Assembly (NCBI GenBank): GCA_918797485.1
Contig: CAKKNE010000003.1
Span: forward strand, 2,232,001-2,296,000
Origin: Pelagomonas calceolata
Taxonomy: Eukaryota
Reading direction: 5' to 3'
Length of the DNA stretch: 64,000 nucleotides
Shown: positions 1-30,591 of the stretch, one piece after another
Numbering within the stretch: the first letter of the stretch is position 1
How the letters are laid out: the number at the start of each line of letters is the position of its first letter
Position numbers and translations under genes: made by a program
Notes under the pieces: generated by a model
Databases searched by the model: none
The model's input: only the letters and a program-made list of their open reading frames with translations
What the model was told of the DNA's origin: nothing

Positions 1-3000
1 GCGCTTCCGCCGCCTGCCGTTTCGCGTCGGCCTCGGCGCGAGCCTTCCGAGCGGCGTCTCGGCGAGCATCTTCCTCGGACTTTCGCAAGCGCGCCGCTTC
101 CTCCAATTCTGCCCTACGCTTCCTTGCCGCTTCTCTCCGTCGCGCGGCGGCCGCGTCGTCAAGGGCTTTCTGTTCCGCGAGCTTTCGTGCGTTTTCGGCG
201 TCCGCGAGGGCCTTGGCGTGTTTCCGTTCGGCTTCCTCCTCCTTCTTGCGGGCCGCGGCAGCTTCACGCTCCCTCCTCAGGCGTTCCAGCTCCTCCTTCC
301 GGCGAGCTTCATCTTCCAATCTCTTTCGTTCCTTCTCTTCGGCGAGGGCCTTGAGGCGAGCCTCCTCTTCGGCCGCCTTGCGGCGCGCCTCTTCATCCTT
401 CGCTTTGCGGCGTGCCTCCGCTTCCTCGAGAGCCTTCCGTTTTCGCTCCGCTTCGTCGGCCAACCGTTGCTGTTCCGCGGCCTCGCGCTCCGCTTCCTGG
501 GCCTTCCGCTTCGCGTCCTCGGCGGCCTTCGCCTCGGCTCTCGCTTTGGCGTCCAATTCAGCTTCGTGGCGTGTGGGATCGTGGCGCCACTGAATGATCA
601 ATTCGACAGCGCCTTCAGCGCCCTCACCAGATAATTCGTACCATTTTTGCTCGGTCTTGCCCTGCAAGGGCATGAGATCGATGCTCACGGAGCCCATGGC
701 ATCGTTGCTGGAAATGGTGTCGGCATCTTCACACTTGACCTCGAGCACGCAGGTGCCGCCGCAGTCCTCAGGCTTTAATGGAATGCTGTATTGCTCTTTC
801 CAAATTGGATCTAAGGTGGTCTTCTGGGCCTTAGTCTTGCCTGTCCACGAGGCTTCGGCGGCCGTCGACAGCGCGAAGGTCAGCTTCGGATCGCTACTTC
901 CGCCAGCGCTGAAGAGATTGCGGTCACGAATAGCGAGCTTCCTGCCACGGAACGCGGCGACCCGTAATTCGTTGACCGGGCCGTCCGACATGTTCTCGCG
1001 ATCGAACGGGTCCCAATCTAGGGACGCGTTGTACCGCCACAGGATAATCAGCTCGACGTCGCCGTGGACGTCGCCCTTGCACTTCTTCTTCGTGAGCGGA
1101 TCCTCGGGCTGCAGTGAATACCACTTTCTCGTGATCGTGTTCGGCTTGAGCTGCGACAGGTCGATGCCCTCAGTGCTCCCCATAAAGTCCGCCGCCGAGA
1201 TCTCGTCGACGTCCTCGACGCGGCAGTGCAGCGTCTCCCCGCCGTTCCCTGTTAGCGGCACGCACCAGGTTTCCCGCCACCGCGGATTGAGGGTCTTCTT
1301 GAGCGTCTCTGTCGTGTGCGAGAGCTTCACCGACGACCCGCCGACGACGTTCAGGATGGCTCGAGGGTCCGACGTGCCACCACTACTAAAGATATTCGAG
1401 TCTTTGATGACGAGATTTCGGCCTTGCGACACCACCACGCAGAGCTCATTGGGAGTCTTGGCCCGAGACGCCTCCTCGACTTCGTCGAAGGGGTCGAAGG
1501 CCAGCGCGGGATCATGGTACCACTGTAGAATTAACTCTACTTCTCCCTCGTCGAGTGCATACCACTTCTTCGAGACGGCCTGATTACGCAGCTCGGCCAG
1601 GTCTACTTCGAAGCTCCCCATCGAGTCATCCTTCGAGACAGCGTCACGGTCAAAGCACTCGACCCGCAGCTTCGGCAGCGGCTCGAGATCAGGTAATGGC
1701 TGTGTGAAGATCTCTCTCCAGACTGGATCGACGGTCTTGTTTTGCACCGTCGAGTGGAAGGTCACATTGGTTCCCGTGAGCGAGAACTTGCAGTACGGAT
1801 CGGAGGAGCCGCCCTTGGACCTGTGGGCAAATCAACCAGTGAGTCAAGAGCCGTAAAGTTTGATTTCGGCACCGCATGCGACAGCAAATTCTTGTCCTTG
1901 ACGGCCAGCTCGCGCCCCTGGCTCAATCCGACCCGCAATTCGTTCGGTGCTTTGTCGGGGAATTTCGGGGCGGCGAACGGCTTCCAGGCGTTCGTCGGCG
2001 AGTGGCGCCATTGCGCAATGACTTCGATAGCGCCACCCGTGTCCAGGGCATACCACTTGCGGAGCGGCTCGCCCTTGCGCTGCAGGAGCGTGGCGAGGTC
2101 AACCTGCGGGAACGAACGTCGCGGCGACGGCGTGGAGTGGGCAGGTGAAAGTTAAAGTTTCTGACTCCGAAGCGCGCCGTCACCGAGCCCATGGGGTCGT
2201 TCTTGGACACGGCGTCCCAGTCTTGAACATTGAGCGTGAGCGAGGGCTGGTCGCCGCTCGACGATGGCGACACAGACCACAGGAATTGCTCATGAAAGAC
2301 TGGTTCCAGAGTCTTCTTCTTGACCGCAGTTTTCTTGGCCTTCTTGGCCGATGAGAGCGAGACTTCCACGAAGGGGTCACTGCTCCCACCCTTGCTCAGG
2401 AGGTTCTTGTCCATGATTGCTAGGCCTCGGGCTTGCACCACAGCAACTCTGAGCTCATTGAGTTCATCGTCAATGACAGGCTCGTTGAATGGATCGTAGT
2501 CCAAATCAGGATTATACCTCCACTGCATGACGACGTTGACCTCGCCAGAGACTTCCTTCGGTAGCCCCTTGTCGTTCTGCTGCAGCGTGTACCACTCTCG
2601 GGATATGCCATGGTCAGGCTGCAAATCAATAGTCACGCAGCCCATCGCATCCGCCGACGAGATCTCGTCCCAGTCTTCGACCTGCGTTCGCGGATGGCGT
2701 GAAGCGTCGCAACGATAGCGTATGGCGTCGAAGGCGTCTCGGCGGACGCTGACGCGCACCTGGAGCGTCAGCTGCGGCTTCGTCCAACCGTCTAGATCAA
2801 TATGTGGCAGAGGGACGACGAAGGTCTCCTTCCAGACGGGCTCCAGGGACTTTTTGATGACCTTCGAGGCCGCAGTCCACGCGGTACCGGCGATGGAGAG
2901 CCTGACGCGCGGGTCCGAGCTGCCACCCTTAGATAGGATGTTTTTGTCGGCAATTACGAGGTCCCGGGCCTTGAACAAGCCGATACGCAATTCGTTCGGA

Positions 3001-6000
3001 GTCTTGTCAGACGTGTCCTCCGAGAATGGTTCGAACGCTATCGCTGGATCGTGGCGCCACTGCACATGCAAACAGACGTGACCCGCCACGTCGCCCTTGC
3101 GGCCCTCGGCCTCGCCAAGCTTGAACCACTTCTTCAGCACCTTCTGGTCCTTCAGCTCATCGAGGTCGACGCTGAATTGCCCCATAAAATCTGAGCCGGA
3201 CACCTGCGCGGGAATCCTCGCGTCGATGGCGTCAATAAAGTGTCTCGGACGCGGCCGCCACACCTCGTCCCAGTCCTCGCACGTGCACACAAGCTTCATC
3301 GATTCCTTGCCCGGAGTGACCGAGCGAGCAAACTGCTCGTGCCACACGGGGTCCAAGGATTTCTTCTTGGGCTTCGTTTTGAAGGGCTTGAGCGATGAGC
3401 CTTCCAGCGCGAACGTCAGGAACGGGTCCGAGGAGCCGCCACTTGATAGAAGGTTTTTATCCGCCACGGCGAGGCCCAGCGCCGACACAGCAGCGATCCG
3501 AAGCTCGTTTGGCTCCTTAGCAAGAAACTCGGCCTCGGTCTGGTCCTCGAACGGCTCGAACGCGAGGTCACGGTTGCGTCGCCACTGCAGGACAAGGTAG
3601 ACCTCACCCTTCGCGGCGCCACCGTCCTTATGCGTAAGTGGATACCAGCCCTTCACAATGGCCTGGTCGGCAAGCGGTTCCATTTGAATAGTCACCCTGC
3701 CCATGAAGTCGGCGGCAGACACGCGATCCCAGTCCTCCATGTCTACGACGAGTTCCCACTTCGTCTCCGGGGGCCCCTTCGGTAGGGCTACCTCAAAGGT
3801 TTCTTTCCAGGTCGGCGTGAGCGTCGATTTCTTGGTAGAAGACTGCAGCTTGATCGCAGTACCAGCGACAGAAAACGTGCATCGAGGGTCCGAGCTCGAC
3901 TTGCCCACGAGGGCCTTGTCCATGGCCGGGAGATCTCTAGCGCGACCGAGGCCAATCCTAAGCTCATTGGGCTCCCCTTCAGTTTCTGACGGCGCGAAGG
4001 GGTCGAATGCCGTGACCGGATTGTACACCCATTGCAGGAAGAGCTCGACGTGGCCGGCAACGTCGCCTTTGCGACCCTCGGTTTCCTCGAGCTTGTACCA
4101 TTTCCTGACCGGCTTGTGATCGGTCAGCGGACCGAGGTCCACGGTGAATTGACCCATGAAATCCGCGCCCGAGACTTCGTCGACGTCTTCGCAAGTTACG
4201 GTCAGCGATGGTGATGAGCCGTCGCCCGGCACGTCCAGCAGCCGCACGAACTGCTCATGGAACTTGGGATCCAAGCATTTCTTGATGGTATGGCTTTTCC
4301 AGGGGTCGTCGACGCCGGTGAGCTCGAAGGTGCAGCGAGGGTCGGAACCTGCGCGGACGGACGTATCAAGCAAGTTTCGCGTCGATGGCGTGGAGAGCGA
4401 CAGTTGATTTGCACACAGGTCGGAACTGCCCCCCTTTGACAGTAAATTTTTATCCGCGATAGCGAGGCCTTGCGCCCGAATCAATGCGATTCGCAATTCA
4501 TTCGGTGCCTCGCCCTCATGCTCGTCAACAAAGCCGTCAAAAGGGCAGAAGTCCAGTCTCGCGTTGTAGCGCCACTGTAGCACGAGCTCGACGTCGCCCG
4601 AGACCTCGTCCTTCTCCGTGCGGGGTTGGAGCGTACGCCAGAGCCGCTTGACCTTCCCGTCGAGGCATTCATTCAAATCACAGTCGAAATGACCCATGAA
4701 ATCAGCGCCGGACACTTCATCGACGTCTTCGCACTTGCCCTGCAGCTTTAGACCGCCGGCCGGCCCCTTCGGCAGCTCGAGCGTCATCACTTGCTTCCAG
4801 ACGGGGTCGAGACTCTTCTTGACCGTCTCGGACGTGCACTTGAGGGCGGTTCCGTCGACGGTGAAGGTCATGCGCGGGTCCGAGCTGCCCTCGCCCCAGA
4901 GCAGGGCCTTGTCCTTGACCGCCAGGCCCGTCGCCTGAAACAATCCGATCCGCAGCTCGTTGGGCTCTTTCCCTTCGGGCAAGGCTTCGTCCTCGAAGGG
5001 CTCGAACGCTCTGGCTTCCGCATACCTCCAGCAGACGACCACACAGACGTCGCCCGACGCGCCCTCGCCTTCGAGGGGCAGCCAGACCTTCTCGCCCGTC
5101 CTTTTTTGCTGTGATGTCCACTTCTCGAGACTTAGGGTGGCCGTTCCCATGGCGTCGTCGCCGCTCACGGTGTCGTGGTCCCAGCAGGACACCTCGAGCT
5201 CCGGTGTCGGTTTGTCCGGCGGCCGCTCGGACGAGAGCGGTAGAATGAACAATTCTTTCCAGACCGGGTCCAAGCTAGTCTTCTTGACCTTCGTGCGCCG
5301 CTCTAGAGTGGTGCCAGCGACCTTTAGCTTGACGTAGGGGTCACTTGAGCCCTTCCCGACGAGGCCCTTGTCCTTTACGGCCAGATTCCGAGCTCGGAAC
5401 ACGCCGACGCAGAGCTCATTCGGCATTTTGGAGGATTCATCAACCTCGGGAAACGCCTCGAAGTCGCGGTCCGCGTCGTAGCACCACTGCAGGATCACTT
5501 CGACCTCACCTTTCTCCTCGCCTAGGGAGTACCACTTCCTCACGACCTTCTGCGGCGGCAGCTCGGAGAGCGCCACTTGCACTTCGCCCATGAAATCAGC
5601 GGACGAGACTGCGTCGTAATCTTCGACCACGCACTTGAATGTGAGTGAGGCGTCCTCTACGTCGAATTCGTGGACCTCGCGCCACTTGGGCTCCAGCGTC
5701 TTGGATTGGTGCGCCGACGTAATAGGCTTGCCGACGACGGCGCCGTCGCCGTCGACGAGAGACAGCACGCATCGAGGGTCCGAACTGCCACCCTTGCTCA
5801 ACAGATTTTTGTCCATCACCGCCAAACCTGTGTGAAAATCAATCTCGGCCATGGCGCGGCCGCCCTGCTTCCGTCGAGCAGGTGTAGCGTCGATGGCGCG
5901 GAGGTCGACGCGGCGATCCAGGAGGAACGCGCCGTAAATATTTGATTTTTCCACACAGCGCCAAACCACGCCCTTGGGACAGCCCGACTCGCAGTACATT

Positions 6001-19124: not shown

Positions 19125-20324
<1,200 letters not shown>

Positions 20325-21013: not shown

Positions 21014-22063
21014 CTACGACTTGCGCTCGACGATGTACTTCGCGATCGCGATCAAGGGAATCGCCGCCTCGCCGTACGGCACGACCGAATCGATGGCCTC
21101 CTGGTACAACCGTTCCGCCTCGGCCCGCGCGCCGTCCAAGCCCATGAGCTTCGGGTAGGTCGTCTTGTCCGCGTCCAAATCTTTCCCTGCCGTTTTGCCC
21201 AGAGCTTCGGACGTAGCCGTAACATCGAGGATGTCGTCGGCCACCTGGAACGCGATGCCGATGTCGTTCGCGAAGGTCTCGCACTGCTTCACGTCCCGAG
21301 GATTCGCGCCACCGAGCAGAGCACCAGTAGCGACAGACACTTCCAACAGTTTCGCGGTTTTGTGCGTGTGAATCCAAGTCAATTCATCCAACGTGACGCC
21401 CTGCTTGGCCTCGCATTCGAGGTCCATGACCTGGCCACCGGCCAAGCCGACCGCACCCACCGCCTCGCCCAGCCGGCGGATGCACTCGACGATCACCTTG
21501 GGCTCGACGCCGGCCTTCGTAGACCCATCAGCGCAGTGCTCGAACGACGTTGACAAGAGAGCATCACCGGCGAGAATCGCGACGTCATCACCAAACACGA
21601 CGTGGTTCGTCGGCGACCCTCTCCTCAAATCATCATCATCCATGGCCGGGAGGTCGTCATGAATAAGCGACATCGTGTGAATCATTTCGATGGCGACTGC
21701 GGTCGGCATCGCAGTAGCCTCAGAACCGCCGAACATCTCGCAGGCGGCGATGGTCATGACCGGGCGCACGCGCTTGCCTCCGGCCAGTAATGAATATCTC
21801 ATGGACTCCACAATTTTTTTGGTCTCGGGCGTCGTGCACTGGATGGACGCGTCCAACGCCTTCTCGACGGCCTGGACCTTCTTGGCGAAGTAGCCCTGCA
21901 AATCGAAGGCCTCGGCGGCCGCTACCAAAGTGTCTTTGGAGCTCACACTGGACGGGATAGGCTCCGAGACCACGGCGCGCGCGGTGACAGGTCGTCGCGT
22001 TTGCTGCGTCGGCGGCGCGACGAGGGCGGCCGCGGACACGGCGAATGCTAAGACACGAGCCAT
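21014..22063 (-). CDS. GGPPS: Geranylgeranyl diphosphate synthase, probably plastid-targeted
   Basis: GGKRVRP, SLIHDDLPAMDDDDLRRG (FARM), GQVMDL, FQVADDILD (SARM), GKTAGKD, KTTYP; signal-peptide-like start MARVLAFAVSAAAL. Confidence 0.93.
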   Translation of the reverse strand: MARVLAFAVSAAALVAPPTQQTRRPVTARAVVSEPIPSSVSSKDTLVAAAEAFDLQGYFAKKVQAVEKALDASIQCTTPETKKIVESMRYSLLAGGKRVRPVMTIAACEMFGGSEATAMPTAVAIEMIHTMSLIHDDLPAMDDDDLRRGSPTNHVVFGDDVAILAGDALLSTSFEHCADGSTKAGVEPKVIVECIRRLGEAVGAVGLAGGQVMDLECEAKQGVTLDELTWIHTHKTAKLLEVSVATGALLGGANPRDVKQCETFANDIGIAFQVADDILDVTATSEALGKTAGKDLDADKTTYPKLMGLDGARAEAERLYQEAIDSVVPYGEAAIPLIAIAKYIVERKS

Positions 22064-22516
22064 TTTGTCGCTGGGTCGCTTGGTCGCTGGGAGAGCAAGT
22101 GTATCCTGTTTTGGGCTGTAGCGTTTCGTACAAGCCCCCACGAGTCCTGGTTTTCGCTTCGCGCTGTGCTGCTATCTGATAGAGCACCGAAGACGGAGCG
22201 AATGTGCTGTGCAGATATGTATGTGCGGAGCAGCCTGGGTCGAGCCGCCGTGCGTCGTGTACTCAAGCACGGCATCCTACTAGTCTCACGTCAACTTTCG
22301 GAACTATGAAGGGCGCCATATCACCACATCCAGCCGTTTTTCACCCGCCCTTGCAAAAGAAACGCCTTCCGGGTCTGGTTGTGCGTTCGTGCGGACCGCG
22401 GAGCCGCCGCGGGTCTGCGAGAGACTACTCAACAACAAATTAACAAGGGCCACCCCTCGACGCCATCGAGACGCGACGTCTCCTCGACGGCGGCGCGGCG
22501 GGAGGGACGAGCACGA

Positions 22517-23257
22517 TCACAGGGCCACCTCCCGCACCGGATGCGGCACCCTCTTGAACGGCAGCCGCCGCTCGCCCCGCGCCGGCCCGGTCCGGTACGC
22601 GAGCAGGCACGGCTCACAGAGGTCCAGGTCGGCGCCGCCCGGCGCGGGACGCGTGTAGCGCACGCCGCGGATCGGACTCGCCTTGCAGTGGCCGCACGTC
22701 GTCCCCACGTGCACGTCCGAGGACTCGTCGAAGACTTTGACCGCGACGCTCTCGCCCGCGGCCGCGGCCTCGAAGACGCCCGGCGACGCCACCACTATTC
22801 CTGAGCTCGATACGTTCAGGAAATGCCGTCGGCGCTTCGTCGCATCGGCGGCTTCATCATCGCTATCATCTCGCTGTCGCTTCGCGGGCCGCGTTTCTGT
22901 GCGAAACGCAATCGCGCGTGCGCTCGCGGCCGCACGCAACGCGGCGAAGAGCGCCTCCTCACTGTCGATTTTGGTCTCTTCGCCATCAACTGTCACGTAA
23001 AGCGCTGCGCTCACGCTGAGCGCTGCGAGTTTTGAAAGCAGCACGTCGGTGTCGTCATCAGTAGTGGCGACGCCGTCCAATGTGCAGATGCGCAGCGACG
23101 CAACCAGCGTGTCGTCTGCCAGCGCTGACGCTTTGGCTGCGTTAATGGCACCGCTGACGAGCTTTCGCGCAGCGCTTTTCGCGACGGCGTCATCGATGAG
23201 CGGTTCGCCGGGCGCCGGATGGTCCGTCTCTGGAGCAGCCTCTGCAGCCTCTGCCAT
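22517..23257 (-). CDS. Protein with PB1-like segment and degenerate ZZ-type zinc finger
   Basis: HVGTTCGHCKASPIRGVRY...DLCEPC is ZZ-like; LYVTVDGEETKIDSEEALFAAL resembles the PB1 OPCA motif. The 3' end may be spliced. Confidence 0.6.
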   Translation of the reverse strand: MAEAAEAAPETDHPAPGEPLIDDAVAKSAARKLVSGAINAAKASALADDTLVASLRICTLDGVATTDDDTDVLLSKLAALSVSAALYVTVDGEETKIDSEEALFAALRAAASARAIAFRTETRPAKRQRDDSDDEAADATKRRRHFLNVSSSGIVVASPGVFEAAAAGESVAVKVFDESSDVHVGTTCGHCKASPIRGVRYTRPAPGGADLDLCEPCLLAYRTGPARGERRLPFKRVPHPVREVAL

Positions 23258-23789
23258 TTTTGTGGGCTACCCAGCGATCGCGACCACAGCGCTCGGAAAA
23301 TGGCTTGCAGCGGTGCTGTGAGCTGCCTGCCAGCCTCCAACTCGCGTCGCCTGCACCGCTCGGCGTGCAGCTCGTCGCGCTGCTGCAGCTGAGATGCGCC
23401 GGCCTGCCATTTTTGCATGCGAACCTGCATAGGAAGTCTCCGGAGCACTGCTGGAACCACACAAGGACGCATGAAGCCTCCTCGCGAGGACACCTTATCC
23501 TCATGCACAACCAGGGGCAGAGCGCCCCGGTCCTCCTCGCCGCGCCTGCTGCCGCACCGCTGCGACCGCGCAGAGCCCCGTAAACTGATAAAAGGTAGCT
23601 GACAGCGAACGCGGTCATTTCCAGCCGTCGATTGCGTGCGCCGCCGTTCGGAGAGGCTCTCTGAAGGCACTCAAATTAGCAGGCGGCCGCAGCGGCACCG
23701 AACCGCACACGGAAGCGCAAAAAACCAGCAGCGCTCGCAAGCACTCGTCAAACGACGCGAACGCAAAGCGCGGTGCAACAAAGGAAAAC

Positions 23790-26700
23790 ATGGCCGAAAC
23801 CTCGCCGCGCACGACGAGCAAGCGCGCGAGAAAGGCCCCCAAGAAGATGAGCGACGCCGCGGACGAGGACGACCTCGACGCCGTCGAAGAGGTTGAGCTG
23901 CAGGAGGCGATCGCTGCCTCCCAGGCCGAGGCGCCGCCGCCCGAGGCGCCGAAGCCGAAACCGGAAATCGAGGAGGGCAAGTTCTACAAGCGAGAATTAC
24001 CGGAGCAGTGCGTCGCCTTCGCCTCGCGAGAAGGCCGCGCCTTCTTCGAGTCCGCTCTTAAATCAGGCGGCCTCGAGGGCTTCTTCGATCTGATCGCGCA
24101 GTTCCATACCCAGAACGAGCCGGCCTACTGCGGTCTCGCGACGCTCACGATGGCGCTCAACTCCCTGAAAGTCGACCCGGGCCGGCCGTGGAAGGGGGTG
24201 TGGCGGTGGTACGACGAAAGTTTGTTAGATTGCTGCAAGGATTTGAGGGAGGTGCAGTTGGACGGGATTTCGTTGGAAGAGTTCGTGTGTCTCGCGGTGT
24301 GCAACGGCCTGTCTTGTGACACGCGGCGGGCCCATGTTGCTGGAGAGGACGTCGAGATCTGTGTGGAAATCAAGCAGTGAGTTAGGTTATCACGCCATCG
24401 AGCCGACACGGTCACGGGGACAACGTCGCGTCGATGGCGTAGAAGTCGAGCAGATGCAGTTATGGGGACGACGTCGCGTCGATGGCGTGGGGCGCCCGAA
24501 ATTTGATTTCCACACAGGTCGAGATGGCTCCAACCACCACGTCAGTGAAGACGTGCGCCAACGTGTCCGACGGCTGCCACGCGTCGATCACTTCCGGTAG
24601 TTTGGATGATTTACGAGCAGCAGTCAAGCACGCGTGCGGCCGGAGCGACGTGGTATTAGCGGCCTCCTACTCGCGCAAGACGCTGGGCCAGACGGGCGAC
24701 GGCCACTTCTCGCCCGTCGGCGGCTACGACGCTTCCACAGATCAGGTCTTGTTGCTGGACGTGGCCCGGTTCAAGTACCCGCCGCACTGGGTACCTTTAC
24801 CGGTACTCTACGAGGCGATGCAGCGCAAGGACCCGAAGACGCTGCAGGTCCGGGGCTGGTGCTTACTAAGCGCCACCTCCTCCACGGAGGGAGAAAGCGG
24901 CGACCTCCGGGCCGCGTCGGCCATCCTCAACACCATCACCGGCGGCAAGGCCTCGAAGCACACGGACCTGCCCAAGCCCGGCCGCAAGCCGTCGGCCAAG
25001 AAGGGCGACGCTCCTAAAAAGCCCGCCGCGCGCAAGCCCGCGACGACGAGGAAGCGCAAGGCCGCGCCGGACGTGACGCAGTGCGGTCTTGGCGCGGCGT
25101 CCGTCATTTGAACCCATCACACGAACGGCGTCGGGGCAATAACCGGTCGCTCGCCGGCACACAGACTGGTGCAAGGCCGCGGACCACTCGGCGCCCGGCC
25201 CCAAGGGCGCCGCCACGCTCTGCCCGGGCTGCGGCGACAAGTTTGCGAAAGGTGACGTGCCGCCCCAGAAGGACCCGGCGACGGGCAAGTTCCCGTGCCG
25301 CGTCGAGGGCTGCGGCGCCGAGTTCGACTCCGAGGGCGCGCTGCGGTCGCACCGGCGCCACGCTGTGCAGAAATCAACCGTGACTGCGTCTGCTCGATGG
25401 CGTGGAGGTTCACGAAGTTAACCTAACTCACACATAGGCGCCACTGCGACGGCGGCACGTGGCGCTGCGGCTGGTGCGGCGCGTCCTCGAAAGACAGCGG
25501 CCACCGCAAGAACCCCGGCCCGAAAGGTCCGGCGACGTTGTGTGGGCCGTGTGGTGGCCGATATAGACAAGGCGCCACGGGCCCGCCGAAGCGCGACGCC
25601 GAGGGGAATTTTCTCTGCGACTCGTGCGATGCGAAATTCCCGACAAACTCGGCGCTGTCCGGTCATCGGCGCTTTTGTGATGGAGGCAAGTGGAGCTGCG
25701 ACTGGTGCGGCTGCAAGAGACTAGAGACTTCTGGAAGAGCGCCGGGGCCGAAGGGGCCGGCTACTTTGTGTGCCGCTTGTGGCGGACGATTTCGAGGAGG
25801 CGCCAAAAGTGCGCCGTCGAAGTGCCCGGAGACGGGCAAGTTCAAGTGCGACGGCTGCGGTTCTCTGTTTGATTCGATAGGAGCATTATCCGGACATAGA
25901 CGGTTCTGCGACGGCGGTTCTTGGCGCTGCGACTGGTGCTCTTGTACGATTAGTGAAGCGGGCAACCGGAAGAACCCCGGGCCCAAGGGCCCCGCGACGT
26001 TGTGTGGTCCCTGCGGTGGGAGATACCGGGGCGGCGCCACGGGCCCACCCACGAGGAACGAGGCGGGCGGTTTCGTGTGCGATAGTTGTGGTAGGGTCCA
26101 CGAGACGCTGGGCGGCCTCGCGGCCCACAAGCGGTCCTGCGACGGGGGCAACTGGCGCTGCGGCTGGTGCGACGCGTCCCTGAGTGAAGTAGGAGGCAGG
26201 AGGAATCCGGGGCCGGACGGCCCTGCAACTCTATGTGGTCCTTGCGGTTCGAGGTGGCGCGCGGGCGCCACGGGACCTCCAACCAGAGACCACAAAGGTA
26301 GATACGTCTGCGACGACTGCGGTTCATTGCACGACACGATCGCTGGCCTCGCGGGACATAAACGGTTCTGTGAAAAAGGCCTCGAGAACTTAGTAGATCC
26401 CGACGACGATGTAGTTGATGTGCTAGGGTTCGATATAGAAGAAGGTTTAGCAGTAGGAGACAACGTCGAGGCCTACTGGGAGTCCGAACTGGAGGGCAAG
26501 GCCTGGCACCCCGCGCGCGTCCACAAGATCTACAAAGAGTCGTACGAGGTCGAGTGGGCCGCGGAGCCGAACGTCTTTGATAAGGTACCTGCCAAACATG
26601 TAAGACCGTTAGAAAGTGTGGTAGAAGGTGCTGATAAAGTAAGTGACGTGAGCGGCTCCATAAAGACGGAGGGGCTCGAAGAGTCGCATAAAGCCCTGGC

Positions 26701-28477
26701 GGCCTGGGACTACGCGTGCTACCACGCGTCGCGAATAGACAAGAACTGGGACGGCGATTCTGTAGGAAGGGCCCTGCAGTGCGGCGACGAAAATGCTTGG
26801 TTGTCTGTGCGACGCGCGGCCGACGAGGCTGCGTTAACTCATGGGTCGTCGTTTCTGGCCTACGAAGCGGAACTGTTGGACGGTTCTCGGCCTAGAGGTG
26901 CTTTGCATAGATTACATTCGACGTTAATTGATGCCTTGACGGCGAAGGCGACGGATCCCAAGTCTCCAGCTATTCCTCGCTCGGCCCCAGGCTTCCAAGC
27001 GACATTACGACGCAACTTCAAGCACGAGAAGCCGTCCTCACCTAGAGCGGTCACCGTCGAAGATTTAGACGGCTGCGACATGGCAGGGAGGCAGGCGCGG
27101 CAGGTCGCGGCCGACGAGGCCGCGATTTCCGTCGCCGAGGCCGTCGATTCATTGAAAGACGTTTTATTGCATGGAGACTGGTACGCGAGATTGCTCGCTT
27201 TTACACGGTGTGTAGTTGCTCGTAGAAAACACGATGCGAGATGCGGTGCGTTTGAACGGCCCGGCGGGCCCGCGCCGCACGTAGGTGAAAAGCTGTGGCC
27301 CCTGGACGCGCAGGCGGTCGAGGACGCGGCGACGTTCGTGGTCAAAGACGCGGACCGGAGGAAGCGCGACCAGCGCGAGGGGCGGCAACGGGGCGGGCGG
27401 GGCGTTCTAGGTGATTTTGCGTCAGATCAAGCGGCGTGCCGGGCCTGCGAGCAGGTTTTAGATGCCGCGCGCGCGGACGGCCGCGGCTCGTACACGCCGT
27501 GGCGCGACTTATCGACCAAGGAGCGCTGCGCCGTCAGCGCGGCGCTGTCGTCGTTGTTGATGGCCCGTCGTAAAGACGACACGGATAAAGCGCTCGAGGC
27601 GCTGAAGACGCTCGGGAAGTTGAAGCAAGCCGCGCCGCCGACGCCGCCGCCTTTAGTGTATGACATCCCCGACGTCTTACAAGCCCAGGTTTGCGGTGTG
27701 TATGTGACGCCTGGTAGCGCCCTCGACAAAGTTGTTGATGGTGCGCCGCGGAAGAAACTGCGGGTCGTGGCGAAGCTAAACAACGTGAAGGTAGAACCGC
27801 CCTCGGCCGTCGTGCCGCAGGGCGCGCCCGCGGACCGCTTCGAAACTATAAGAGGAGCGGTCGGGTCCTTCCGCCGCTCGCCCTTAGGGTCGGATCGAGA
27901 TGGAAGGACTTACTGGGCGTTGGGTGAACGCTTCGACGTGCTGTGGTGCCGGGCGTCGACCGGCGCGTGGAGCTTCTGTTGTGATGTACAAGAACTCAAG
28001 GCCTTGGTCGAATCGCTCGGGAGGACGGACGACGAGAAAAGGCTCAAGAAGGTGCTGGTTAAATTAGCGCCGATCTTCGAGCGGAGCCTGGGATTGACGG
28101 GCGTGGCTTGTTCTTTGTGCGGAGCGGCGCCGCCGAACGGGCAATTGCTGTTGTGCGACGGCACCGACTGCGCGGAGGAGTGGTGCTTTGCGTGTGGTGG
28201 CGTCACTTGCGTCCCGGACGGCGACTGGAAGTGCCGGGGCTGCGTCTCAGTGCCGCTAGACGTGGCGTCGCAGAAGTGGGCGCAATGCGACTCCTGTGCC
28301 AAGTGGCGGCGCCTGCCGTCGCACATTGTTCTGCGGAAGCTGCCGGCGCGCTGGACCTGCGACATGAACGTCTGGGATGCAGACCGGGCGGCGTGTGATG
28401 TGGATGCGGAGGCGCGGCCCGACGGGTCCGCGTTCCGGGCGCGCGGCGGCGGGATCATCTTTGATGGGGGTGGGTAA
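23790..28477 (+). CDS. Phytochelatin synthase catalytic domain fused (predicted) to 5x GATA-like/C2HC zinc-finger units, Tudor/Agenet, WHIM-like, PHD and CW domains; ~1452 aa, 3 introns
   Basis: PCS motifs TQNEPAYCG, WKGVWRWYDE, GQTGDGHFSPVGGY, LLLDVARFKYPPHWV. Introns 24351-24517, 25086-25164 and 25355-25437 (GC) give one continuous frame into ORF 25538-28477. Confidence 0.75.
24351..24517 (+). mobile_element. Introner-type intron with 15-bp TIR and perfect 8-bp TSD GTCGAGAT
   Basis: GTCGAGAT-CTGTGTGGAAATCAA...TTGATTTCCACACAG-GTCGAGAT; internal tandem copies of GGGAC(A/G)ACGTCGCGTCGATGGCGT. Confidence 0.95.
25355..25437 (+). mobile_element. Introner-type GC-AG intron with TSD GCGCCAC(G/T)
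   Basis: GCGCCACG-CTGTGCAGAAATCAA...CCTAACTCACACATAG-GCGCCACT; removal restores HRRHCDGG of the zinc-finger repeat. Confidence 0.85.
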
Positions 28478-28660
28478 GTTTGTGATGTGTATCCTCTACT
28501 GCCTCTACTTTGCGTATAAATTAGGCTATAGTGCAGCAGCAGGTGGGGCCTGGATTTCCAGGGGCCTCGAGCGGCGCGTACTCCTCCCACTGCGGGCCGT
28601 CGTCGCTCCCGCCGCTCCTTCGGAAGTGACCTTCGATGCGCCACTTGCCCCCCCGTCGCC

Positions 28661-30591
28661 TCACTCGCGCGATACGGCCTGGGCGAGCTTGTCCGCGTGC
28701 GCGCGCGCGTACGGCACGATCGTCTTCGCGAGGTCCTCGGCGACGCACATGCCCTTCTCGGCGATCTTCAGGTCCTTCTCGTCCCACTCGCACTGCCCAT
28801 ATTTCTTGTAGAGCTGCTTCTCGTCGTCCCCGGCCCGTTTCACGAGCACGTTCAGCAAGAGGTGCTGCGGGATGAAGATCTTGAAGTTCGGCTCGTTCAT
28901 GTGGAAATTGAACGACCCGTCCTGCGGGATGACGAGGAAGAGGTAGTTCGGCACGTCGAGCGGCGCAGCGGCCTCGCGGAGGTTGGCCGCTATGTTACCG
29001 TCGTCCAGAGCATGCGCGTCGATCACGACGACCAGCACGGCGGCGGTCTCGAGCGGGACCTCGGCCTGCGTGCGAGGCGACGGTTGGCGGTCGATGTGCG
29101 AAGCGAAGTGTCACGAAATCAATGACACTGCGTCGCACGCGGCCGCCGCCTTCGCCCTGAATATTGAACATGAACGAGGCCCGCTTGGCCATGCAGGCCG
29201 CGACAGAAAGCGGCGTCGGCCGGTCGACGCCGGGGAATCGGCAGAGCAGGGGCTTCTTCACCTCGCCCGAGCCGAGGACCACGTTCACCCCACCGTCGAC
29301 CAGTTTCCGCGCGACGACACAGTCCCCGATGTTGTGGTGGCGGCGGCTCTGGTCGCCGCTCGGAAACTCCGCGTAGTGCAAGGCCTTCAGCGTCGTCGGC
29401 GGCAGGCCCGTCTCGGACACCATGACCAGCGTGTGAGTTGGCGAGTAACCCGACTGCGTCCACGTGATCAATTTCTCGCGCGTGCGCGTGGTCGAGTCGA
29501 GCGCGCGCGCTTGCGCGAGGAGGAACGTTTTCGCGCCGGCGACGTCGCCCGCGAAGGAGGTGAGCCACGAAGCGCCGGCGCCCGCGTACAACAGGAGGCG
29601 GTCGAAATCGAGCGTGCTGGGGATGGTGCCGAGTGGTGAGCTACCGGACGACGACACGTAGGCCTCGACGTCCACGATGGCGCGGCCGCGCCGCAGGTTT
29701 TTGCCGGCCTTCAAAGCGCAGGCGAGCTTCAGGGCCGGCGAGGTCAGGACCTGCTCGGTCCCGTCGGCCGCGCGGCGCACGAAGGCGACGAGCGTGCTCG
29801 GGAACTGCGTGCCGATGTAGACGATGCGGTCGTAGCCGGTTTCGAAGCCAGATTGCCCCGAGTCCAGCATGATCCTCGCGTCGCGGCCCGTGCCGATGTT
29901 GTAGGGCACGAAAATCATGACGGGCACCTGCGTCGGTGGCGCTCAGGGACGCGCCTCTTCGCGGACGCCGCGCCCGTGCGATCTCCTCCTTGTCGTCGTA
30001 TGGCGCCAGGTCGCTGATATCGACGGACTTGGTCACGTAGCCCGGGATGATCGCCTTCTCGAGCGCGAGGGAGACACCGTGCGACTGGTACGTGTAGCGC
30101 AGCTCGAGCTTGCCCGCCGCCCAGTAGTCGTCTGCGTGGGACGCGAAGACGTCGCAGACGGTCGACGATCGGGACGCGGAGGGCGCACCCGTCGCGCCGG
30201 CGCCGGCGAAGTCGAAATTTTTGTTCTCGGGGATGCGCAACAACACGTCGACCATGTGGACGAAAAGCGCCCGGTCGTCCGTGGCCAACCTCGCCTCGGC
30301 CCACGTCTTTTTCGCGCGGCGCACGACGGCGACGGGCACGCGGCCGATGTCCTCGGGCTCCTGGTCCTCCACGATCTCGCGTAACGGCGGGACGCCGTCG
30401 CTCTCGACGACGAACTGCACCGCGCTGCCGCGTCTCGTCGACTCGATGGCGCGCAACACGGCGTAGTCGGCGTCGCGTTCGTCGAGTTTGCGGATGGTCT
30501 CCATCATCCTGGCCATGCCCACCTTATAGACGACCGCGTTGCTCGAGTTTTTGTCCGCCTCGGCGATCGTGGCGCCGATGAGGCCGCCCAT
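28661..30591 (-). CDS. Hypothetical protein, probably two introns (~29928-29979, ~29066-29138)
   Basis: ORFs 29641-30642, 28995-29927 and 28661-29038 have protein-like composition and join at CAG acceptors 29928 and 29066. No family recognised. Confidence 0.55.

What the first reader, a model, noticed from the sequence alone, without database searches (positions are those of the whole stretch)
23790..28477. Phytochelatin synthase apparently fused to a multi-domain chromatin reader
Seen: the PCS domain keeps the Cys/His/Asp triad (PAYC, DGHF, LLDV) and is followed by a K/R-rich NLS-like linker. Removing GT-AG intron 25086-25164 creates TQC-D-WC, exactly the CxWC start of the downstream repeat unit. 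The downstream ORF has no ATG start of its own. The product continues into zinc fingers, a Tudor/Agenet-like domain (~26445-26610), a WHIM-like RRSPLGSDRDGRTYW, PHD (~28107-28245) and CW (~28270-28400). Established: PCS is a papain-fold, metal-activated transpeptidase, normally cytosolic with a modest Cys-rich tail; WHIM+PHD typify BAZ/ACF1-like proteins. Inference: a nuclear metal- or glutathione-responsive chromatin protein, or a PCS fold repurposed as a chromatin-bound peptidase.
Basis: partly seen in the sequence, partly recalled or inferred. Interest (0 to 1): 0.85.

Follow-up and report, generated by a model that had tools for sequence, protein, structure and literature searches.

The report
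Phytochelatin synthase fused to chromatin reader
In a small ocean alga, the enzyme that makes metal-binding phytochelatins is encoded in one spliced gene with a zinc-finger chromatin-reader protein, a join also kept in a diverged relative, which likely puts this normally cytoplasmic detox enzyme to work on chromosomes.

Summary
The fusion is real. Four exons give one 1,452-aa frame. An RNA contig covers the whole gene with all three introns removed, and raw polyA reads cross the key junction 25085/25165. A diverged relative (73% aa identity, dS about 1.2) encodes the same fusion as one intron-free ORF in syntenic DNA, with dN/dS about 0.2 in both halves. In Aureococcus the two halves are separate genes, so the fusion is derived. 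It was found in 1 of 214 PCS proteins tested. All PCS catalytic and second-substrate residues are kept. The rest of the protein is five GATA-like/CCHC finger pairs, Agenet, a DDT/WHIM-like block, WSD, a variant PHD and CW, resembling an ISWI accessory subunit. A published gene table already lists the domain combination without comment; the searches found no paper describing it. Nuclear location and activity are untested. Best reading: a chromatin-tethered, active phytochelatin synthase.

The parts
23525..28489 (+). Transcribed region as covered by RNA contigs (ends approximate)
   Evidence: X7 contig 23525-28484; X5 contigs 23527-27104 and 27082-28489; first mates on the minus strand, i.e. a + strand RNA in most stranded libraries
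23790..24350 (+). Coding exon 1: basic NLS-like stretch (23820-46), UIM-like helix (23886-930, lead only), N-terminal half of PCS with T107, E110, Y113 and catalytic C114
   Evidence: (PF05023 E 6.9e-43); UIM_2 only E 1.8, below cut-off
24351..24517 (+). Intron 1, GT-AG, introner-like repeat with 15-bp terminal inverted repeats and an 8-bp direct repeat; absent in locus L002
   Evidence: spliced in X21, X24, X5, X7; repeats elsewhere in the window; empty site in L002
24518..25085 (+). Coding exon 2: C-terminal half of PCS (R240, H250, D268, R271, K273), a helix shared with stand-alone relatives, then a K/R-rich NLS-like linker (25013-25060)
   Evidence: (PF05023 E 1.9e-34)
25086..25164 (+). 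Intron 2, GT-AG, single copy in the window, in-frame TGA at 25109-25111; spliced gives the fusion, retained gives a 384-aa PCS-only frame
   Evidence: spliced: X24 reads, X7, X3, X6 contigs; retained: X5, X3, X6 contigs and X23 reads; retained frame equals P0001; no intron here in L001
25165..25354 (+). Coding exon 3: first (degenerate) GATA-like finger and most of the first CCHC finger
25355..25437 (+). Intron 3, GC-AG, introner-like repeat
   Evidence: 83-nt skip in X5 and X7 contigs with 8 nt of ambiguity; repeats in the window
25438..26371 (+). Four further ~77-aa units, each a GATA-like C4 finger plus a C2H2-like CCHC finger (five units in all; three in the relative)
   Evidence: AF2 pLDDT 83.7; VIA best hit AtGATA18 Z 6.0, rmsd 2.1 over 37 of 38 residues; Foldseek hits to C2H2 arrays
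26456..26611 (+). Agenet/Tudor domain
   Evidence: PF05641 27.6 bits, cut-off 27
26681..26917 (+). DDT-like helical block (named by position and motif; Pfam DDT not matched)
   Evidence: profile from 7 paralogues hits it at iE 5.5e-8; no Pfam hit; Atlas lead 0.79 to DDT/WSD clusters
27500..27565 (+). WHIM1-like helix (weak)
   Evidence: aligns to the P0063 stretch with Pfam WHIM1 E 0.014; paralogue profile iE 0.039
27872..28063 (+). WSD (WHIM2/3) domain
   Evidence: PF15613 36 bits, cut-off 25.4
28109..28243 (+). PHD finger, all-Cys variant
   Evidence: BAZ2B PHD E 5.4e-5; Pfam below cut-off; dN/dS 0.09
28277..28411 (+). CW zinc finger with both conserved Trp; stop codon ends at 28477
   Evidence: PF07496 49.5 bits; MORC4 and MORC3 CW, E 5.7e-7 and 3.1e-6

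Best explanation
This is one gene whose spliced transcript encodes an intact phytochelatin synthase joined to a multi-domain chromatin protein, and the product is likely a chromatin-tethered, catalytically active enzyme that buffers metals and handles glutathione conjugates in the nucleus. Shown: the gene structure, the spliced RNA, the conserved intron-free orthologue, purifying selection on both halves and the kept catalytic residues. Inferred: basic signals import the protein. The GATA-like/CCHC array binds DNA, Agenet, PHD and CW read histone tails, and the DDT-like/WHIM/WSD block docks on an ISWI remodeller. The PCS domain, which lost the ancestral CxxC-type motif and hydrophobic tail, would turn glutathione plus metal-glutathione into phytochelatin beside zinc-finger-rich chromatin. 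Retention of intron 2 in this lineage would lower the amount of fusion protein or yield a free PCS; which of the two is unknown.
For: One 4,631-nt contig with all three introns out and raw junction reads. PolyA depth rises toward one 3' end near 28,400 with no peak after the PCS stop. Intron-free 1,301-aa ORF in 15-kb syntenic DNA; its cluster has 13 members, 11 of them 1,280-1,365 aa. dN/dS 0.17 for the PCS core, 0.19 fingers, 0.09 PHD, 0.14 CW at dS about 1.2. T107, Y113, C114, R240, H250, D268 and K273 sit at the spacings of AtPCS1 T49, Y55, C56, R152, H162, D180 and K185 (residue numbers from PMC3855540 abstract, PMC11314372 section 2.2, PMC12899622 passages). Nearest stand-alone PCS end in a hydrophobic tail (Kyte-Doolittle 17-mer 1.5-2.7 versus 0.3-0.7 in the fused lineage's short forms), which is replaced here by a basic linker conserved in the relative. 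WSD, CW and Agenet pass Pfam cut-offs.
Against: No localisation, activity, proteomic or ISWI-binding data. Selection on both halves shows that each is needed, not that they are coupled. Intron 2 is retained in a large share: unitig depth 69.8 retained versus 65.9 spliced in X3, 10 versus 19.8 in X6, and only the retained form listed in X5. Raw-read depth dips over intron 2 and exon 3 in all four raw runs (0-3.3; exon 3 is 75% GC, and counts are small). Pfam DDT and WHIM1 are not matched directly. The published gene table lists a second, stand-alone PCS, which could relax constraint on where this one works.
Confidence: 0.5

Rival explanations
1. Tolerated passenger fusion. A rearrangement joined two useful genes, each half does its old job independently (the PCS wherever it lands, perhaps after cleavage), and intron-2 retention partly restores a free PCS.
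For: The halves are separate genes in Aureococcus. A long low-complexity linker separates them. Intron 2 is often retained, and the same short C-terminus occurs in P0088, P0091, P0097 and P0170. A second PCS gene exists.
Against: The relative has no intron at this place, so it has no splice route to a free PCS, yet it kept the fusion over dS about 1.2. The ancestral hydrophobic tail was lost and basic signals flank the PCS in both lineages.
Confidence: 0.3
2. Signal-coupled chromatin enzyme. The PCS domain would act on glutathionylated chromatin proteins (removing the Gly of glutathione adducts), or its metal-dependent acylation would switch the attached remodeller subunit.
For: PCS is a papain-fold dipeptidyl transferase and also removes Gly from glutathione conjugates (recalled). 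It is joined to three histone-reader types and a DNA-binding-like array. A UIM-like helix is conserved at the N-terminus (lead only).
Against: No substitution in the active site points to a new substrate; second-substrate residues for phytochelatin synthesis are kept. No direct evidence.
Confidence: 0.17
3. Artefact or unproductive read-through: two neighbouring genes merged by assembly or annotation.
For: The published model just upstream merges GAPDH and GGPP synthase, so that annotation does merge neighbours. 20 of 55 GT..AG pairs would keep the frame. Raw junction reads are few.
Against: Junction seen in 3 of 4 samples; uninterrupted ORF in the relative's DNA; no usable start codon for the finger half.
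Confidence: 0.03

Closest known systems
Eukaryotic phytochelatin synthases (PF05023, EC 2.3.2.15; AtPCS1; Nostoc Alr0975 structure 2btw; Aureococcus AURANDRAFT_53895)
   Same: Full PF05023 domain, Cys/His/Asp triad, 'E-type' group-2 signature four residues before the Cys, second-substrate residues; 70% identity to the Aureococcus enzyme over the first exon's part.
   Different: No Phytochelatin_C domain, no CxxC-type motif or hydrophobic tail of its nearest relatives; instead about 1,080 aa of chromatin domains. 1 of 214 PCS proteins tested carried them, the relative P0004.
DDT/WHIM ISWI accessory subunits (ACF1/BAZ1A, WSTF/BAZ1B, BAZ2, yeast Itc1, plant DDT proteins)
   Same: WSD above cut-off, WHIM1-like and DDT-like helices in the expected order, BAZ2B-like PHD behind them (definition from PMC8536118 passages).
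   Different: No WAC or bromodomain hit; GATA-like/CCHC array, Agenet and CW instead; carries an enzyme domain; DDT not matched by Pfam.
Uncharacterised pelagophyte/haptophyte GATA-like+CCHC repeat proteins with WSD (Aureococcus AURANDRAFT_66332, Chrysophaeum CTAYLR_004836, Prymnesium AB1Y20_009213)
   Same: Same repeat, same helical block and WSD; the Aureococcus protein is 43% identical over 92% of the last exon's ORF.
   Different: They have their own N-terminus and no PCS; the Aureococcus orthologue also shows no Agenet or CW hit.
PCS splice variants by intron retention (Scenedesmus SaPCSa/c, rice, Sesbania; PMC12899622 passages)
   Same: A retained intron with a premature stop leaves the catalytic domain and removes the C-terminal part.
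   Different: Here the removed part is a whole chromatin-reader protein, not the usual Cys-rich tail.

Membership tests
Phytochelatin synthase (PF05023) | Full-length PCS catalytic domain | tested here: met
   profile positions 1-119 and 119-210 in exons 1 and 2; 258.6 bits in the relative
Phytochelatin synthase (PF05023) | Cys-His-Asp triad | tested here: met
   C114, H250, D268; aligned to Alr0975
Phytochelatin synthase (PF05023) | Second-substrate residues (At Tyr55, Arg152, Lys185) and Thr49/Glu signature | tested here: met
   Y113, R240, K273, T107, E110, mapped by spacing from the triad, not by alignment to AtPCS1
Phytochelatin synthase (PF05023) | Metal-activated synthesis of phytochelatin from glutathione | not testable with these tools
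   needs an enzyme assay
DDT/WHIM ISWI accessory subunit (BAZ/ACF1-like) | WSD (WHIM2/3) | tested here: met
   36 bits versus cut-off 25.4; 23.5 bits, just under, in the relative
DDT/WHIM ISWI accessory subunit (BAZ/ACF1-like) | DDT domain | tested here: inconclusive
   no Pfam DDT hit; conserved helical block at the expected place; Atlas top hits are DDT clusters at 0.79, a lead only; single-sequence fold unusable
DDT/WHIM ISWI accessory subunit (BAZ/ACF1-like) | WHIM1 | tested here: inconclusive
   aligned to a weak Pfam WHIM1 stretch of P0063; paralogue profile iE 0.039
DDT/WHIM ISWI accessory subunit (BAZ/ACF1-like) | Binding to the ISWI SLIDE domain | not tested
   no ISWI sequence of this organism was fetched; no complex prediction run
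BAZ proper | Bromodomain next to the PHD | tested here: not met
   no bromodomain hit; CW follows the PHD
GATA transcription factors | GATA C4 treble-clef fold | tested here: met
   predicted model matches AtGATA18 (Z 6.0, rmsd 2.1, 37 of 38 residues), GATA1 and AreA; Z under 8 is modest
GATA transcription factors | Canonical GATA sequence profile and WGATAR binding | tested here: inconclusive
   Pfam GATA 19.8 bits versus cut-off 26.8; DNA binding not testable
CW histone readers | CW finger with the two cage tryptophans | tested here: met
   49.5 bits; both Trp align with MORC3 and MORC4; their role as an H3K4me cage is recalled

The most novel reading that the evidence does not exclude
A phytochelatin synthase has become the enzymatic module of a chromatin-remodelling subunit: it senses nuclear metal-glutathione or trims glutathione adducts on chromatin proteins and thereby regulates transcription, and retention of one intron switches between the chromatin-bound form and a free enzyme in one of the most abundant algae of iron-poor oceans.
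Probability: 0.2. Interest if true: 0.9.

Novelty: new variant of a known kind. Interest (0 to 1): 0.72.

Why it matters
Why phytochelatin synthase is widespread and constitutively expressed without metal pollution is an open question (PMC11314372 abstract). A natural, conserved fusion to histone readers and a DNA-binding-like array points to a nuclear role and makes it testable in a cultured alga. It would link thiol and metal metabolism directly to chromatin, in an organism reported to raise its copper quota under iron limitation (PMC13284251 passage). It also shows how a retained intron hides a fusion from transcript-based catalogues, which list a 384-aa protein.

Tried and rejected
No whole genome was held, so PCS copy number rests on a published gene table that was cut when stored. 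Single-sequence AlphaFold of the last 685 aa gave pLDDT 37 and was not used. The careful tree did not finish; a quick tree was used, 70 of 81 rows, 11 dropped for partial or split coverage. The UIM-like helix reached only E 1.8 in 1 of 5 stretches scanned and no hit in three relatives: kept as a lead. My GATA regular expression was too strict and printed nothing; repeat counts come from the CCHC pattern and the pairwise alignment. Intron 2 has no similar copy in the window, so I do not call it an introner. Longer Aureococcus PCS entries (P0006, P0007, P0121, with DHHC or 2OG-oxygenase parts) were rejected as merged models: L003 shows a stop-bounded PCS ORF between those genes. Other long PCS proteins with unrelated domains are mostly single records and were not followed. 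The GATA/CCHC motif occurred in 1 of 80 PCS loci (L001) by a strict pattern that printed no locus, so that scan is uninformative. Supplements of PMC13284251 gave no hit for the gene; its annotation, transcript-count and edgeR files were too large to read and the protein file was cut, so expression under iron or light stress remains unseen. Three look-ups in earlier findings returned nothing. No complex prediction was run.
Full report
Gene structure. The region holds a PCS exon pair and a 1,016-codon zinc-finger ORF without a usable start. Removing 24351-24517 (GT-AG), 25086-25164 (GT-AG) and 25355-25437 (GC-AG) gives one frame of 1,452 aa from ATG 23790 to the stop at 28477; the first in-frame Met of the last exon lies at 27080, behind all fingers. 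Frame alone proves little, since 20 of 55 GT..AG pairs around the stop also keep it open. Introns 1 and 3 are repeats with short terminal inverted repeats and 8-bp direct repeats found elsewhere in the window. Locus L002 has the empty site of intron 1. This fits the introner elements described for pelagophytes (passages of bioRxiv 2022.06.06.494994, and PMC9481584). Intron 2 has no copy elsewhere in the window.

RNA. Of 24 runs listed I laid 8, from 4 samples. X7 gives one 4,631-nt contig from 23525 to 28484 with all three introns out. X24 raw polyA reads skip intron 2 (3 reads, 2 starts). X21 lists no such joint. X5 gives a 3,338-nt contig with introns 1 and 3 out and intron 2 in. X3 and X6 hold both forms as a bubble, with depths 69.8 retained versus 65.9 spliced and 10 versus 19.8; X23 reads run through the intron; X22 depth falls from 3 to 0.05 at the donor. 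So the fusion junction is seen in 3 of 4 samples and retention in 3 of 4. Contig depth is a poor measure, and X3, X5, X6 and X7 are only guessed to be RNA, though each shows at least one spliced joint. PolyA depth rises toward a single 3' end near 28,400 with no peak after the PCS stop. Against: raw depth dips to 0-3.3 over intron 2 and exon 3 in all four raw runs (exon 3 is 75% GC; counts are small). The retained frame equals P0001, a 384-aa 'complete' transcriptome protein whose longest contig is 4,734 nt. Whether that RNA is translated or degraded is unknown; a stop followed by an intron and a 3.3-kb tail is a typical NMD target (established knowledge).

Conservation. P0004 (1,280 aa, PCS plus CW) came up in all three protein searches; 11 of its 13 cluster members are 1,280-1,365 aa, on contigs up to 103 kb. 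Locus L001 encodes this fusion as one uninterrupted ORF (1385-5290), with the same ZZ-finger gene upstream and a block matching window 34.9-43.5 kb downstream. Against the window it is 73% identical, dS about 1.2, dN/dS 0.20 overall: PCS core 0.17, linker 0.39, fingers 0.19, Agenet 0.30, central block 0.18, WSD 0.13, PHD 0.09, CW 0.14 (one pair, near saturation). It has three finger units instead of five.

Origin. The Aureococcus PCS is a 284-aa stand-alone gene between a 2OG-oxygenase and a DHHC gene. The Aureococcus orthologue of the chromatin half (P0055, 43% identity over 92%) has its own N-terminus, no PCS, and no Agenet or CW hit. In a quick tree of 70 of 81 PCS domains, the 8 fused-lineage rows form one branch (SH-aLRT 99) inside a group (94) whose other members are stand-alone enzymes. 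Those stand-alone enzymes carry a CxxC-type motif and a hydrophobic C-terminal tail that the fused lineage lacks; that the tail is a membrane anchor is inferred. The fusion is therefore most simply derived. Intron 2 lies inside the first finger, not at the join of the two ancestral genes, so the join is genomic rather than made by splicing. Among 214 PCS proteins (150 best representatives of 4,106 hits plus those), only P0004 matched profiles of the finger array or the chromatin half; 36 long ones scanned with Pfam showed no chromatin domain.

Anatomy. PCS: full PF05023, triad C114/H250/D268, with T107, E110, Y113, R240 and K273 at the spacings of AtPCS1 T49, the group-2 Glu, Y55, R152 and K185 (numbers from PMC12899622 passages; PMC3855540 abstract; PMC11314372 section 2.2). 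Finger array: AF2 with 21 sequences, pLDDT 83.7, pTM 0.39; best structural matches are GATA fingers (AtGATA18 Z 6.0, rmsd 2.1, 37 of 38) and C2H2 arrays; the Atlas places it with an unnamed, mostly haptophyte cluster at 0.97. Agenet, WSD and CW pass Pfam cut-offs. The PHD matches BAZ2B at E 5.4e-5 and has Cys in place of the usual His. DDT and WHIM1 are not matched by Pfam; a paralogue-only profile finds the DDT-like block at iE 5.5e-8 and the WHIM1-like helix at 0.039, and the Atlas's nearest clusters for this region are DDT/WSD proteins at 0.79, a lead only. DDT plus WHIM motifs form the ISWI-binding module of BAZ/ACF1 proteins (PMC8536118 passages). Nuclear signals are judged from basic motifs only.

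What is in print. The gene table of PMC9481584 lists Pca_3p12770 with PF13912, PF07496 and PF05023, next to a GGPP-synthase model and a RING/ZZ-superfamily gene, the order seen in the window; it also lists a stand-alone, cyanobacteria-like PCS, Pca_4p01370 (table cut when stored). So the organism is Pelagomonas calceolata or a very close relative, and an automatic annotation already holds the fusion. That paper's main text has 0 mentions of phytochelatin, and its neighbouring model merges GAPDH with GGPP synthase, which are separate ORFs in the window, so the table alone is no proof. Searches for PCS with Pelagomonas (1 paper), phytochelatin with pelagophyte (2 papers), PCS with fusion and nuclear terms (listing of 20 of 419), PCS with chromatin and histone (11 papers, listing only) and WHIM/DDT/ISWI/GATA (0) showed no description of such a fusion; the library lacks most subscription papers. 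A comparative survey of microalgal PCS has 0 mentions of Pelagomonas or Aureococcus. Unread supplements of PMC13284251 may hold expression data for the gene.

Mechanism. I commit, at 0.5, to a chromatin-tethered active PCS that buffers nuclear metal and handles glutathione conjugates, on an ISWI-accessory-like scaffold. Gene, RNA, conservation and residues are shown; import, DNA and histone binding, ISWI docking and catalysis are inferred. A tolerated passenger fusion (0.3) cannot be excluded, since selection on both halves does not show coupling. A signal-coupled chromatin enzyme (0.17) is the boldest reading. An artefact is very unlikely (0.03).

Verdict. Real, transcribed, conserved in two diverged lineages and apparently undescribed; known parts in a new architecture with a partly retained intron at the joint. 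Novelty: new variant of a known kind. Interest 0.72.

Noticed in passing
window 19125-20324 (-) and 21014-22171 (-): GAPDH and GGPP synthase are separate ORFs about 700 bp apart, but the published model Pca_3p12750 carries both domain sets: probably a merged annotation.
   Followed up: partly
window 22517-23266 (-): Gene with a weak ZZ-finger match (E 0.003) lies head-to-head with the fusion, about 550 bp apart, and is kept in L001 and L019: a possible shared promoter.
   Followed up: partly
L002:1100-1176; window 24351-24517: Introner presence/absence polymorphism in this gene: L002 lacks intron 1 but has another introner-like insertion just after the catalytic Asp, which explains database proteins that end there (P0003, P0098).
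   Followed up: partly
window 25165-26371; P0056-P0071, P0160: The 77-aa GATA-like+CCHC unit is a mobile repeat of pelagophyte and haptophyte proteins, found with WSD, with bromodomain+PHD (P0067, P0068) or with a ParA-like N-terminus (P0066); it has no Pfam family of its own among the hits.
   Followed up: partly
P0005, P0008-P0012, P0016, P0118; L003, L005: A group of short algal PCS ends in a CxxC-type motif and a hydrophobic tail followed by basic residues, like a tail anchor.
   Followed up: partly
window 23886-23930 (+): UIM-like acidic helix before the PCS domain, conserved in the relative; Pfam UIM_2 only E 1.8.
   Followed up: partly
window 28661-29942 (-); L001:5300-5500: The genes directly downstream in the window (no Pfam hit) have no match in L001, where the fusion is followed directly by the block matching window 34.9 kb onward: about 6 kb gained, lost or moved.
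   Followed up: no
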